Assembly: GCA_040755755.1 (NCBI GenBank)
Contig: JBFLZW010000072.1
Location: 12,574-76,573 of the forward strand
DNA length: 64,000 nucleotides
Direction: 5' to 3'
Origin: a bacterium
Lineage (GTDB): Bacteria > SZUA-182 > DTGQ01
Shown here in pieces: positions 27,101 to 28,111 of this stretch; positions within the stretch are counted from its first letter, which is position 1; each line of letters starts with the position of its first letter. The position numbers and the translations under genes are program-made. The notes beneath the pieces were generated by a model. That model did no database searches. It saw only the letters and a program-made list of their open reading frames with translations, and was not told the DNA's origin.

Positions 27101-27206
27101 GGGTGGAGATATGCCCATGCCTTATGCTTTTTTCCCTGCGGGCATTTTCAGAAATCCGCTTGATGGGAAGATCCACTTCGATTAATCGCTTGGGGTATCG
27201 ATTCAA
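24195..27206 (-). CDS. DUF1156-type DNA methyltransferase with Zn-ribbon (N6A/N4C class, DPPY)
   Basis: 1003 aa. N-terminus [45 protein letters not shown] (DUF1156), SAM motif [12 protein letters not shown], Cys4 ribbon (CEGPGC...CPCCG) and catalytic FTDPPYYD. The start is TTG. It contains an internal (NG)5 insert. Confidence 0.8.
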   Translation of the reverse strand: [1003 protein letters not shown]

Positions 27207-27230
27207 ACCGCATGCTCCCTGAGAATTTAC

Positions 27231-27578
27231 TTATTTTTCTAGTTCTTCAATAATTTTTTCTATTTTTTCTTTTAACTCAGGAATCTTGTCCTGTATAGCA
27301 TCCCATACAATATCCCAGTTCACTCCAAAATAATAATGGATAATTTTATCTCTCATCCCAGCGATTTTTTTCCATTGAATGTCTGTGTATCTTTTTTTGA
27401 AATCATGAGAAAGACTTTTTACTGCTTCACCAATAATTTCAAGGCTTCTGGTGCAACCTCTTTTCAGTAATTCATGAGAGATAAAATCTTCATAGGTAAA
27501 TCCGCTGGTTTCATGTAAGAGAAATTTTGTTTCATCCAGGATATGTTTAAGATACGGTAAGTTCTGCTTCATAACCAC
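27231..27578 (-). CDS. HEPN (DUF86) toxin of a HEPN/MNT pair
   Basis: 115 aa with the Rx4H motif in GMRDKIIHYYFGV. It overlaps the upstream MNT gene by 10 nt. Confidence 0.8.
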   Translation of the reverse strand: MVMKQNLPYLKHILDETKFLLHETSGFTYEDFISHELLKRGCTRSLEIIGEAVKSLSHDFKKRYTDIQWKKIAGMRDKIIHYYFGVNWDIVWDAIQDKIPELKEKIEKIIEELEK

Positions 27579-27868
27579 TTGATCTCTTTTTCTACGTGTG
27601 GTTGAATATAGGGACTCAAACTGCCTTTCGTTATAAGTTCTATCTTTCTACCAAATAAATCTTCAAGATAAAAAGCGAGATCCATAAAATTATCAAAACT
27701 GGGAGTTTCAAACTCGATAAGAAAATCTATGTCACTATTTTCTTTTTGTTCTCCTCTGGCATAAGAACCAAATAATCCTATCCTTTTAACTTTATACTTT
27801 CTCAAAATATCACTGTGCTCTCTCAGTGCTATGAGTATCCCTTCCTCTGTAAGTTCCTTGCTCTTCAT
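27569..27868 (-). CDS. Minimal nucleotidyltransferase (MNT) antitoxin
   Basis: 99 aa with the GLFGSYARGEQKENSDIDFLIEF (GSx10DxD) signature. Confidence 0.85.
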   Translation of the reverse strand: MKSKELTEEGILIALREHSDILRKYKVKRIGLFGSYARGEQKENSDIDFLIEFETPSFDNFMDLAFYLEDLFGRKIELITKGSLSPYIQPHVEKEIKWL

Positions 27869-28009
27869 TGTAAACTCCCAAAATGCTCAGTTCTCCCTTT
27901 GGGAGGGGAGCATTACCAGTTTGTCAAAATCGAATTTCTCGTTCTCCATCCAGATCACCTCTCGCACCCTGTTGAGATGGCATGATTGACGGTTACGGTG
28001 CATTGGTTT

Positions 28010-28111
28010 CTATACTCTTAACGAATGGGTAATCCTCCCTCGGCAGTCATGTTCAGAAATCCGCTTGATGGGAAGATCTACTTCGATTAACCGCTTGGGA
28101 AACTGAGTCAA
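28010..28111 (-). pseudogene. Orphan 5' fragment of a DUF1156 methyltransferase gene (first ~20 codons, then divergence and a stop)
   Basis: My translation is [35 protein letters not shown]. Positions 28052-28099 match 27147-27194 at 46/48 nt. The TTG overlaps the stop of the 184-aa gene (TTGA). Confidence 0.75.

What the first reader, a model, noticed from the sequence alone, without database searches (positions are those of the whole stretch)
27147..28099. HEPN/MNT cassette bracketed by a 48-bp duplication of the methyltransferase 5' end (module-swap scar)
Seen in sequence:
- 27147-27194 (codons ~5-20 of the live MTase, [16 protein letters not shown]) recurs at 28052-28099 with 46/48 identity.
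- The upstream copy starts with a TTG that overlaps the stop of the 184-aa gene (TTGA). It then diverges and hits a stop after 33 codons.
- Between the copies lie the MNT and HEPN genes, about 180 bp of non-coding DNA, and the functional MTase start.

Inference: ancestrally the YwgA-like gene was translationally coupled to the MTase. Either a TA cassette alone, or a TA plus MTase(-ATPase) module from a related locus, then recombined in through the conserved MTase 5' end. This would be a visible example of modular exchange inside a defence operon. It now separates the helicase/YwgA half from the MTase/ATPase half.
Basis: partly seen in the sequence, partly recalled or inferred. Interest (0 to 1): 0.7.

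Follow-up and report, generated by a model that had tools for sequence, protein, structure and literature searches.

The report
Recombination scar flanking embedded toxin-antitoxin cassette
A toxin-antitoxin gene pair was spliced into a bacterial anti-phage operon by recombination at the conserved start of its methyltransferase gene, leaving a duplicated 64-base stub; similar scars in unrelated genomes show how such "embedded" defence genes get in, though every component is of a known kind.

Summary
27147-27194 recurs at 28052-28099 at 46/48 identity, against none expected by chance. The homology is really about 64 nt, from the TTG start to codon 22.

The locus is an Hma (type-1 BREX-related) defence operon: helicase, YwgA-like gene, DUF1156 methylase, DUF499 ATPase. 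Six relatives have the YwgA-like stop overlapping the methylase start (ATGA/TTGA) with no insert, so that arrangement is ancestral.

The insert is an AT-rich, intact MntA/HepT (MNT/HEPN) pair plus a 179-nt spacer. A 93%-identical metagenome contig carries the same stub, spacer, cassette and methylase start. Its flanks on both sides are far more diverged, with the change-points inside the two repeat cores. So the cassette moved as a unit bounded by the conserved methylase 5' end.

Independent scars exist elsewhere:
- the same site around DarTG in an archaeon;
- the same site around an HD/YwgA pair in a deltaproteobacterium;
- der, murA and hsdS gene ends.

Differences between repeat copies are mostly synonymous (29:5), so they are two alleles, not in-situ decay.

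Best explanation: homology-anchored acquisition, by a one-sided or single-crossover event. The recombination route and the components are known kinds. The scar, as evidence for how genes become embedded in Hma operons, was not mentioned in the four papers consulted.

The parts
29119..32619 (-). hmaA: SNF2 helicase with a C-terminal NOV_C/DUF3883 nuclease-like domain (1166 aa)
   Evidence: PADLOC HmaA E = 7e-191. Pfam SNF2-rel_dom, Helicase_C, NOV_C.
28924..29016 (-). Pseudogene fragment of the HD-domain gene that precedes the YwgA-like gene in relatives (residues 376-406)
   Evidence: tblastn with the L020 HD protein. The first ~375 codons are missing.
28757..28922 (.). 166-nt MITE-like insertion that splits the HD remnant. 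It has terminal inverted repeats and a 9-bp target duplication, ATGTTTTTA (28923-28931 and 28748-28756).
   Evidence: Inverted repeat I6, sequence reading, TIR search.
28665..28775 (-). Second HD pseudogene fragment (residues 395-434). It ends in ATGA overlap with the YwgA-like start.
   Evidence: tblastn.
28108..28662 (-). 184-aa YwgA-like gene (resembles the DarG C-terminal region). It is intact.
   Evidence: 3785 homologues, some named YwgA by JGI. PADLOC DarG C-terminal region E = 6e-11. Invariant residues are kept.
28048..28111 (-). Copy B: dead stub of the methylase 5' end (codons 1-21 plus 1 nt). The 33-codon ORF is 28010-28111. Its TTG overlaps the YwgA-like TGA.
27869..28047 (-). Spacer of unknown origin that travels with the cassette. 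GC is 45-47%. No homologue was found.
   Evidence: Shared with L090 at 92.8%. No match in other loci, Rfam or the protein database. No promoter-like site.
27569..27868 (-). MNT nucleotidyltransferase (MntA-type antitoxin), 99 aa
   Evidence: Pfam NTP_transf_2 E = 1e-16, PADLOC PDC-S09. The motif GSYARG...DID is present.
27231..27572 (-). HEPN RNase (HepT-type toxin), 113 aa from the ATG that overlaps the MNT stop (ATGA). An alternative GTG start lies at 27578.
   Evidence: Pfam HepT-like E = 8e-26. Rx4H motif RDKIIH. Gene call of 113 aa.
27203..27226 (-). Remnant of the last 7 codons plus stop of a different YwgA-like allele (ILREHAV*). It overlaps the live methylase TTG as TTGA.
   Evidence: 20/24 identical to the L093 YwgA-like tail, 13/24 to the window's own tail.
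27143..27206 (-). Copy A: the first 64 nt of the live methylase gene
24195..27206 (-). hmaB: DUF1156 N6-adenine methyltransferase (1003 aa)
   Evidence: Pfam DUF1156 E = 3e-22, PADLOC HmaB E = 1e-131.
21341..24181 (-). hmaC: DUF499 ATPase (946 aa)
   Evidence: Pfam DUF499, PADLOC HmaC E = 2e-117.

Best explanation
The repeat is a recombination scar left when a MntA/HepT (MNT/HEPN) toxin-antitoxin cassette became embedded in an Hma (type-1 BREX-related) defence operon.

Ancestral state: the YwgA-like gene's stop codon overlapped the start of the DUF1156 methylase gene hmaB.

Incoming DNA: it carried, in order, a truncated hmaB 5' end, a 179-nt spacer, MNT, HEPN, the last 7 codons of a foreign YwgA-like gene and an hmaB start. 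It paired with the resident locus through the first ~64 nt of hmaB and was integrated there.

Result: that segment is now present twice. The upstream copy is a dead 33-codon stub still coupled to the YwgA-like gene. The downstream copy heads an intact hmaB. The operon keeps its methylase and gains a cassette in the same orientation.

Shown:
- the repeat itself;
- the empty-site arrangement in relatives;
- the foreign YwgA-like tail in front of copy A;
- a 93%-identical copy of the whole unit in another metagenome, with more diverged flanks on both sides;
- independent scars of the same type elsewhere.

Inferred:
- The physical route. One option is a single crossover of a circular molecule holding one repeat plus the cassette. 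Another is a linear fragment whose two arms pair with the same target on sister chromatids. The first formation of the truncated junction needs a one-sided homologous plus illegitimate event.
- That the stub now acts as a left homology arm, which makes the cassette portable between Hma loci.
- That the cassette acts as a back-up abortive-infection or addiction module.
For: 1. The repeat is real and exceeds chance.

2. Six relatives have the uninterrupted YwgA-like/hmaB overlap.

3. The cassette looks foreign. GC is 31-35% against 43-55% in the flanks. Its closest relatives, L091 and L092, match only MNT-HEPN (27869-27234 and 27887-27245) and sit in other contexts.

4. The 24 nt before copy A match the YwgA-like tail of L093 at 20/24. 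They match the window's own tail at only 13/24.

5. L090 shares the stub junction, spacer, cassette and remnant at 93%. The flanks are more diverged:
   - 7 of 10 copy-B differences lie in its first 21 nt, and the 20 nt upstream are dissimilar.
   - Proportion of synonymous sites that differ (pS): 0.33 in hmaB 5', against 0.09 in MNT and 0.14 in HEPN (Fisher p = 0.004).
   - Over hmaB nt 65-177, cassette-bearing L090 is nearer to cassette-free L093 (10 differences) than to the window (13).

6. Independent recurrence at the same site:
   - L020: a 67-nt, 94% repeat around DarT-DarG.
   - L048: an hmaB stub, MTTKDNDRRLIEDYLPIKAISVNY*, in front of HD-YwgA.

7. The same signature occurs at other gene ends: der 5' (L073), murA 3' (L065), hsdS 3' (L017, L029, L046) and hmaB 3' (L007). 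Of 54 HD-YwgA loci, 9 exceed every one of about 160 mismatched-pair controls.

8. Differences between copies are 29 synonymous to 5 non-synonymous (P = 3e-11). They are also split into a diverged part and a near-identical part: L073 9/60 against 0/71, L065 1/68 against 11/102, L090 8/24 against 3/64.

9. hmaB nt 1-180 are among the most conserved stretches of the gene (0.69-0.78 against a mean of 0.55). A hypervariable stretch follows.

10. Single-crossover integration that leaves 109-950 bp duplications of the homologous locus has been demonstrated experimentally (PMC3240628). Inter-chromatid integration of transforming DNA is documented in PMC3784515.
Against: - No donor molecule and no near-identical empty site are available. 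The illegitimate junction can only be placed between about 28032 and 28050, and microhomology there cannot be checked.
- The flank comparison with L090 and L093 rests on contigs of 1.0-1.1 kb: 20 nt on the left and 177 nt on the right.
- Higher synonymous divergence in hmaB could partly reflect composition differences. It could also reflect an ordinary later allelic replacement whose ends happened to fall in conserved DNA.
- In L020 the differences between copies are mostly non-synonymous. That fits decay after an in-situ duplication just as well.
- The origin of the spacer is unknown.
- Nothing shows that the cassette is expressed or functional.
Confidence: 0.75

Rival explanations
1. In-situ target-site duplication. 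The TA cassette would be an autonomous or trans-mobilised element that inserts by staggered cuts and duplicates about 64 nt of its target.
For: Direct repeats flank the insert. In L020 the copy differences look like neutral decay, 1 synonymous to 4 non-synonymous within the 67-nt repeat.
Against: - There is no transposase, integrase or terminal inverted repeat in or next to the insert.
- Duplication lengths vary from about 34 to 170 nt across cases.
- Differences between copies are overwhelmingly synonymous, so they are allelic.
- A foreign YwgA-like tail lies inside the duplicated unit.
- The targets are unrelated genes.
Confidence: 0.05
2. Tandem duplication of hmaB, or of a YwgA-like/hmaB/cassette block, followed by deletion of most of the first methylase copy.
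For: L009 has an MNT-HEPN pair between hmaB and hmaC. A duplication that joined HEPN to the YwgA-like tail could be imagined from such an arrangement.
Against: - The spacer has no similarity to any part of hmaB or to other Hma loci.
- There is no second cassette and no remnant between hmaB and hmaC, which overlap or abut.
- The model needs several precise deletions.
- It does not explain the different YwgA-like alleles at the two copies, or the younger age of the cassette relative to its flanks.
Confidence: 0.07
3. The stub is kept by selection as a functional element. It could be a translated leader that maintains translational coupling from the YwgA-like gene into the cassette, or a regulatory peptide or RNA.
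For: In L090 the stub ORF stays open through the whole spacer and ends in an ATGA overlap with the MNT start. In the window, L020 and L090 the stub keeps a start codon overlapping the upstream stop.
Against: - The window has a TAG at codon 34 and a second stop plus indels further on.
- L020's stub carries non-conservative changes.
- The spacer-encoded peptide has no homologues.
- No Rfam family matches.
- This reading would explain retention of the stub, not its origin.
Confidence: 0.08
4. Assembly artefact: mis-joining of two strain variants through a shared conserved segment.
For: The source is metagenomic and the repeat lies in a conserved gene segment.
Against: - The same structure appears in a second assembly record (L001) and in an independent sample at 93% identity (L090).
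- The longest identical run between the copies is only 27 nt.
- Both junctions are covered within single contigs.
Confidence: 0.01

Closest known systems
Homology-anchored integration of foreign DNA. This covers homology-facilitated illegitimate recombination (de Vries and Wackernagel 2002; Prudhomme et al. 2002, cited from PMC5361080) and single-crossover integration of circularised donors in E. coli conjugation (PMC3240628).
   Same: One conserved segment serves as the anchor. The product carries the foreign DNA next to a partial duplication of the homologous locus, 109-950 bp in the E. coli experiments. No element-encoded recombinase is needed.
   Different: - Here it is a natural event inside a defence operon.
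- The duplicated segment is shorter, about 64 nt.
- The unit then appears in a second, diverged locus with the same internal junction. That suggests the stub was re-used as a homology arm.
Sequential displacement arrays: orphan immunity genes in Vibrio T6SS clusters and orphan Rhs/CDI toxin-immunity modules (PMC5361080 and references therein).
   Same: New modules enter through a conserved gene segment. Fragments of the displaced gene remain as scars. Repeated events build arrays, as seen here with 3-4 hsdS 3' copies in L046 and L017.
   Different: There the conserved segment is the 5' body of the toxin gene and the old effector is displaced. Here the target gene (hmaB, der, murA) stays intact, and the newcomer is an unrelated TA or defence cassette.
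Defence genes embedded in Hma, BREX, DISARM and type I RM operons (Hma-embedded candidates, bioRxiv 10.1101/2024.01.29.577857; auxiliary HEPN/MNT effectors in type-1 BREX-related systems, PMC12839542).
   Same: The operon is the same (helicase, DUF1156 methylase, DUF499 ATPase). Small TA or nuclease cassettes sit between the core genes. L007 even carries HEC-04 at this junction.
   Different: The preprint never uses the words recombination or duplication, and it says the significance of embedding remains to be explored. My term search of PMC12839542 covered the system and its effectors, not how embedding occurs. The stub is sequence evidence for the route.
att-site duplications made by integrase-bearing genomic islands and prophages that insert into gene ends.
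   Same: A gene end is present twice, once intact and once as a fragment, and the two copies are slightly different alleles.
   Different: There is no integrase in or near the insert. The targets are diverse and the repeat lengths vary. The insert is only about 0.8-2.2 kb.
HepT/MntA (HEPN/MNT) toxin-antitoxin systems.
   Same: An MNT gene lies upstream of a HepT-like HEPN gene and overlaps it. The nucleotidyltransferase and Rx4H motifs are intact.
   Different: No functional difference is seen. Only the genomic setting is of interest.

Membership tests
Hma / type-1 BREX-related defence system | SNF2-type helicase with a C-terminal nuclease-like domain (HmaA) | tested here: met
   PADLOC HmaA E = 7e-191 over residues 13-1134. 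Pfam SNF2-rel_dom, Helicase_C, NOV_C.
Hma / type-1 BREX-related defence system | DUF1156 N6-adenine methyltransferase (HmaB) | tested here: met
   Pfam DUF1156 E = 3e-22. PADLOC HmaB E = 1e-131.
Hma / type-1 BREX-related defence system | DUF499 ATPase (HmaC) on the same strand in one gene block | tested here: met
   PADLOC HmaC E = 2e-117. All genes are on the minus strand, 21341-32619.
Hma / type-1 BREX-related defence system | Anti-phage activity | not testable with these tools
   Needs experiment. Reported for family members in the literature (PMC12839542, citing earlier work).
HepT/MntA (HEPN/MNT) toxin-antitoxin pair | MNT nucleotidyltransferase fold with the GSx(n)DxD motif | tested here: met
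   Pfam NTP_transf_2 E = 1e-16. Sequence FGSYARGEQKENSDIDF.
HepT/MntA (HEPN/MNT) toxin-antitoxin pair | HepT-like HEPN domain with the Rx4-6H motif, encoded directly downstream and overlapping | tested here: met
   Pfam HepT-like E = 8e-26. Motif RDKIIH. ATGA overlap with the MNT stop.
HepT/MntA (HEPN/MNT) toxin-antitoxin pair | Toxicity of HEPN neutralised by MNT | not testable with these tools
   Needs experiment.
Scar of homology-anchored acquisition (one-sided or single-crossover recombination) | Direct repeat made of a target-gene end, with one copy heading or ending an intact gene and the other truncated | tested here: met
   Copy A heads the 1003-aa hmaB. Copy B stops after 33 codons.
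Scar of homology-anchored acquisition (one-sided or single-crossover recombination) | Relatives with an uninterrupted (empty) site | tested here: met
   L002, L006, L009, L012, L014 and L093. The closest is still only 73% identical in the YwgA-like protein.
Scar of homology-anchored acquisition (one-sided or single-crossover recombination) | The two copies are different alleles (donor and recipient), not an in-situ duplicate plus decay | tested here: met
   - A foreign YwgA-like tail precedes copy A.
- Both differences in the 48-nt core are synonymous.
- In sister cases the count is 29 synonymous to 5 non-synonymous.
- L020 is an exception.
Scar of homology-anchored acquisition (one-sided or single-crossover recombination) | Microhomology at the illegitimate junction | not testable with these tools
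   The donor sequence is unknown. The junction can only be placed between about 28032 and 28050.
Transposon or insertion-sequence insertion | Transposase gene and/or terminal inverted repeats, with a fixed short target duplication | tested here: not met
   The insert contains no transposase or recombinase ORF and is not flanked by inverted repeats. Duplications range from 34 to 170 nt across cases.
Integrase-mediated island (attL/attR) | Tyrosine or serine recombinase within the element and a specific target | tested here: not met
   The insert holds only MNT and HEPN. The targets of sister cases are hmaB, der, murA, hsdS and rpiB.
Integron gene cassette | attC hairpin at the cassette end and an array next to intI | tested here: not met
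   There is no imperfect inverted repeat downstream of HEPN or in the spacer. None of the nine Hma-region ORFs scanned against Pfam (16878-33660) is an integrase.

The most novel reading that the evidence does not exclude
Small defence and toxin-antitoxin cassettes that encode no recombinase may move between genomes as units bounded by two copies of a conserved gene end. Examples here are MNT/HEPN, DarTG and the HD/YwgA pair.

Once a first illegitimate event has created a stub, the unit stub-cassette-gene start can integrate by homologous recombination alone. It can enter any naive locus that has that gene end and recreates the duplication there. It can also loop out again through the repeats.

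On this reading, conserved ends such as hmaB 5', hsdS 3', der 5' and murA 3' act as host-supplied attachment sites. This would be a general route by which defence genes become embedded in other defence operons and build arrays.
Probability: 0.4. Interest if true: 0.65.

Novelty: new member of a known kind. Interest (0 to 1): 0.45.

Why it matters
Many defence operons (Hma, BREX, DISARM, type I RM) carry other defence or toxin-antitoxin genes nested between their core genes. The study that catalogued these in Hma says the significance of embedding remains to be explored, and it offers only a "genomic sink" idea for how they get there.

This locus, with its relatives, gives sequence-level evidence for a concrete route. 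Entry happens by recombination anchored in the most conserved nucleotides next to an operon junction. It leaves the core gene intact and a short stub behind.

The stub is easy to search for with a nucleotide profile. The idea can therefore be tested across thousands of loci, and in the laboratory with cassette DNA carrying 60-200 bp of a target gene end.

The work also shows that the HD/YwgA pair, which looks like a core part of these operons, is itself such a cassette. The components and the recombination chemistry are not new.

Tried and rejected
1. **A third, older methylase 5' copy in the spacer.** The window and L020 spacers share an LDG(E/K)RE(I/V) peptide motif found nowhere else in 81 loci. 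L020's spacer also reads YLPEQKNISENAQK, which resembles DLPIKKISEHARR. However, the nucleotide profile finds nothing in either spacer even when they are searched alone. I treat this as unsupported.

2. **Origin of the spacer.** Nothing was found by blastn or tblastn against all fetched loci. Rfam gave only a chance snoRNA hit below threshold. The protein database search with the L090 spacer ORF found no candidate.

3. **A promoter for the cassette or hmaB.** There are no sigma-70-like sites in the spacer or after HEPN, and counts do not exceed the shuffles.

4. **Wider sampling of Hma loci from metagenome contigs.** Viral contigs and plasmids gave 8 more Hma loci with VapBC, HicAB, RelE, Fic and Uma2 cassettes at the junctions, but no stubs.

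5. **Discordance between the helicase half and the methylase half.** Identities to distant relatives are not informative at this distance.

6. **Using the diverged-plus-identical pattern to choose between routes.** I first took the pattern as excluding a single crossover of a circle. I dropped that, because heteroduplex segregation can produce the same pattern, and because the junction shared by the window and L090 fits a transferable unit better.

7. **Wider-window test for repeats around HD/YwgA.** Its control maximum was inflated by hsdS ends that are conserved between loci, so it is too conservative.
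Full report
**1. Observation**

The 48-mer at 27147-27194 recurs at 28052-28099 with two mismatches. None of 100 dinucleotide-preserving shuffles of the window gave any match. The repeat finder extends the pair to 94 nt at 77% identity.

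All genes here lie on the minus strand. Read in gene orientation, homology starts at a TTG start codon and runs 64 nt to ...ATTTCTGAACATG. Copy A (27143-27206) heads the 1003-aa methylase ORF. Copy B (28048-28111) is 56/64 identical. Its TTG overlaps the TGA of the 184-aa gene, and its frame stops after 33 codons.

A nucleotide profile of ten orthologous methylase 5' ends hits copy B at E = 4e-13.

The same structure is present in a second assembly record (L001) and, at 93% identity, in an unrelated JGI metagenome contig (L090). It is therefore not an assembly artefact.

**2. Anatomy of the locus**

PADLOC and Pfam identify an Hma system, which a 2026 paper calls a type-1 BREX-related system (PMC12839542). 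On the minus strand the order is:

| Coordinates | Feature |
|---|---|
| 29119-32619 | hmaA, SNF2 helicase with NOV_C domain |
| 28108-28662 | YwgA-like gene, 184 aa |
| 28048-28111 | stub of the hmaB 5' end (copy B) |
| 27869-28047 | spacer, 179 nt |
| 27569-27868 | MNT |
| 27231-27572 | HepT-like HEPN |
| 27203-27226 | 24-nt remnant of a YwgA-like gene tail |
| 24195-27206 | hmaB, DUF1156 methylase |
| 21341-24181 | hmaC, DUF499 ATPase |

The host is a bacterium, judged from hybrid histidine kinases, an RhlB-type helicase and Mrp antiporter genes.

MNT and HEPN keep their catalytic motifs and overlap by ATGA. Their GC content is 31-35%, against 43-55% in the flanks and 45-47% in the spacer.

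**3. Ancestral state**

I fetched 80 genomic loci that encode relatives of the 184-aa protein. In the Hma loci L002, L006, L009, L012 and L014, the YwgA-like stop overlaps the hmaB start as ATGA with nothing between them.

L093 is the relative closest to the window in both the YwgA-like protein (73% aa) and the hmaB 5' end. It reads ...ATGGTTTGAATGAATAC..., again a TTGA overlap. An uninterrupted hmaB follows for the 86 codons the contig holds.

No relative has a second intact methylase.

**4. What the copies are**

The 24 nt before copy A (ATTCTCAGGGAGCATGCGGTTTGA, reading ILREHAV*) match the YwgA-like tail of L093 at 20/24. They match the window's own YwgA-like tail (IPEERAT*) at only 13/24. 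So the duplicated unit began inside a YwgA-like gene of a different allele.

L090 carries the same stub junction, spacer, MNT, HEPN, remnant and hmaB start. Divergence between the window and L090 varies by segment:

| Segment | Divergence, window vs L090 |
|---|---|
| 20 nt upstream of copy B | sequences are dissimilar |
| Copy B | 15.6%, with 7 of the 10 differences in the first 21 nt |
| Spacer | 7.2% |
| MNT | 3.7% |
| HEPN | 6.5% |
| hmaB 5' (177 nt) | 9.0%, 14 synonymous and 2 non-synonymous |

The proportion of synonymous sites that differ is 0.33 in hmaB, 0.09 in MNT and 0.14 in HEPN (Fisher p = 0.004).

Over hmaB nt 65-177, L090 differs from cassette-free L093 at 10 sites and from the window at 13 sites.

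The block between the two repeat cores is therefore younger than both flanks. The change-points lie inside the cores, at about 28097 on the left and 27147-27200 on the right. The simplest reading is that the unit "core, spacer, TA, YwgA-like tail, start" was transferred between two diverged Hma loci. This rests on short contigs and small counts.

The closest other relatives of the cassette, L091 (85% nt) and L092 (80% nt), match only MNT-HEPN and sit in unrelated contexts.

**5. Recurrence**

The same scar exists at the same junction in two other lineages:

- **L020**, a Methanosarcinales MAG. A 67-nt, 94% repeat of the hmaB start brackets a 2.2-kb DarT-DarG cassette.
- **L048**, a deltaproteobacterial MAG. 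A stub, MTTKDNDRRLIEDYLPIKAISVNY*, lies directly upstream of the HD-domain gene and the YwgA-like gene. The live hmaB follows, and the two copies share a 28-nt identical core. The HD/YwgA pair is therefore itself a cassette inserted at this site.

All three stubs end within about 18 nt of each other, at hmaB codons 20-25.

L007 has a 91-nt repeat of the hmaB 3' end bracketing hmaC.

Beyond Hma, I tested 54 HD/YwgA loci. Nine have direct repeats of 27-128 nt within 300 nt of each side that score above every one of about 160 mismatched-pair controls. The repeats are ends of the neighbouring gene:

- der 5' end (L073, 131 nt);
- murA 3' end (L065, 170 nt);
- hsdS 3' end (L017, L029, L046);
- rpiB 3' end (L078).

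L046 and L017 hold three or four hsdS 3' copies interleaved with inserts.

**6. Alleles, not decay**

Differences between copies are mostly synonymous:

| Locus | Synonymous : non-synonymous |
|---|---|
| L073 | 7 : 1 |
| L065 | 10 : 1 |
| L007 | 9 : 2 |
| L048 | 3 : 1 |
| Total | 29 : 5 |

The total gives P = 3e-11 against a 30% expectation. Both copies therefore evolved inside functional genes of different lineages.

The differences are also unevenly placed. One part of each repeat is diverged and the other is near-identical:

| Locus | Diverged part | Near-identical part | p |
|---|---|---|---|
| L073 | 9/60 | 0/71 | 6e-4 |
| L065 | 11/102 | 1/68 | 0.03 |
| L090 | 8/24 | 3/64 | 0.001 |

In the window, both differences in the 48-nt core are synonymous. 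Codons 2-4 differ (TQF against NRY) at positions that also vary among functional orthologues. L020 is the exception, with mostly non-synonymous differences.

**7. Mechanism**

These features fit acquisition anchored by homologous recombination in a conserved gene end.

The first 180 nt of hmaB are among the most conserved stretches of the gene. Mean pairwise identity is 0.69-0.78, against 0.55 for the whole gene. A hypervariable stretch follows directly. This makes the 5' end a natural anchor next to the operon junction.

The truncated end of the stub must have arisen once by an illegitimate join, as in homology-facilitated illegitimate recombination (cited from PMC5361080).

After that, homologous recombination alone can move the unit. 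Two routes would do this:

- A circle holding one repeat plus the cassette integrates by a single crossover. In E. coli conjugation experiments most recovered events were of this kind and left 109-950 bp duplications of the homologous locus (PMC3240628).
- A linear fragment pairs its two arms with the same target on sister chromatids (PMC3784515).

I cannot tell these routes apart. The junction shared by the window and L090, set between different flanks, favours a transferable unit over two independent illegitimate events.

Steps shown: the repeat, the empty sites, the foreign YwgA-like tail, the shared unit with more diverged flanks, and the recurrence. Steps inferred: the physical intermediates and the direction of transfer.

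**8. Present function (inference)**

The cassette lies in the operon's orientation, with no promoter-like site in the spacer. It is probably transcribed with the operon.

In L090 the stub ORF stays open through the spacer and ends in ATGA overlap with MNT. In the window it is closed by TAG at codon 34 (TCG in L090). Translation of the stub is therefore not conserved.

hmaB keeps its TTG, with a GGGAG motif 8 nt upstream.

By analogy with published embedded systems, the HEPN/MNT pair may serve as a back-up abortive-infection module or as an addiction module (bioRxiv 10.1101/2024.01.29.577857; PMC12839542). This was not tested.

**9. Relation to what is known**

- Embedding of defence genes in Hma is published. 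PADLOC's HEC models come from that work, and L007 carries HEC-04 at this very junction.
- HEPN/MNT pairs in these operons are also noted in the literature.
- The preprint does not mention recombination or duplication. It says the significance of embedding remains to be explored.
- Scars of homology-anchored displacement are known from T6SS, Rhs and CDI loci.

The finding is thus a new instance of a known process in a setting where, in the papers I consulted, the route had not been documented. The added observation is that the stub-bounded unit seems to have moved between loci. Neither the components nor the chemistry are new.

**10. Limits**

- The metagenome-contig scan was lost to a tool error.
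- The nearest empty site is only 73% identical in the YwgA-like protein.
- L090 and L093 are about 1 kb long.
- The spacer's origin is unknown.
- The idea of a third, older copy in the spacer was not supported.

Noticed in passing
window 28665-29016: The HD-domain gene that precedes the YwgA-like gene in almost all relatives is a pseudogene here. Only residues 376-406 and 395-434 remain, and the first ~375 codons are deleted. The window's YwgA-like gene is therefore an orphan of the HD/YwgA pair.
   Followed up: partly
window 28757-28922: A 166-nt MITE-like element splits the HD remnant. It has terminal inverted repeats (CTCTCTACCGGACACTTTT / AAAAGTGTCCGGTAGCGA) and a 9-bp target duplication, ATGTTTTTA. 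It also has internal GAATGAACGC repeats. The second assembly (L001) breaks near this element.
   Followed up: partly
window 29017-29059: A perfect-looking 20-bp-stem hairpin lies just after the hmaA stop. Its T-run is on the plus strand, so it would terminate antisense transcription rather than operon transcription.
   Followed up: no
window 18516-21179: An 887-aa coiled-coil protein directly downstream of hmaC has weak LmuB/JetC (SMC-like) matches in PADLOC. It could be a further embedded or adjacent defence gene.
   Followed up: no
L073 8420-8550 / 10746-10876; L065 1813-1982 / 4135-4304; L078 1714-1740 / 3623-3649: The HD/YwgA pair sits next to housekeeping genes (der, murA, rpiB). It is bracketed by duplications of those genes' ends, with an intact copy kept. 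Differences between the copies are almost all synonymous.
   Followed up: partly
L046 7756-11328; L017 536-3779: Three or four copies of the hsdS 3' end are interleaved with inserted genes. These are arrays that suggest repeated insertions at one conserved gene end.
   Followed up: no
L007 4858-5441, 7495-8934, 15388-15478: One Hma locus has several scars:
- hmaA is reduced to a 5' stub (residues 9-77) followed by an MNT gene.
- A frameshifted HEC-04-like ATPase-Toprim lies between the YwgA-like gene and hmaB.
- A copy of the hmaB 3' end follows hmaC.
   Followed up: partly
L020 10014-10164: The live hmaB downstream of the DarTG insert has ACG where relatives have ATG. It has no canonical start codon before position 10164, while the stub keeps ATG. 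This could be a non-canonical start, a sequencing error or a dying gene.
   Followed up: no
L090 22-269: In the 93%-identical relative, the stub ORF is open for more than 80 codons through the spacer and ends in ATGA overlap with the MNT start. The window has TAG at codon 34.
   Followed up: partly
window 27927-27959 and L020 7902-7940: The spacers after the two independent stubs both encode ...G(D/G)LDG(E/K)RE(I/V)(R/K)(F/Y) in one frame. This motif was found nowhere else in 81 loci. Profile searches give no support for homology to hmaB, so it remains unexplained and may be chance.
   Followed up: partly
window 27231-27868 vs L090 266-903: Between the two lineages, HEPN has 13 non-synonymous and 9 synonymous differences, and MNT has 6 and 5. 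Constraint on the cassette is much weaker than on the adjacent methylase start (2 non-synonymous, 14 synonymous).
   Followed up: no
L085-L089 (plasmids of Planktothrix, Geminocystis, Picosynechococcus, Thermus): Plasmid-borne Hma operons carry VapBC, HicB/RelE, Fic, Uma2 endonuclease or lone MNT genes at the hmaA/hmaB and hmaB/hmaC junctions. No detectable stubs were found there.
   Followed up: partly
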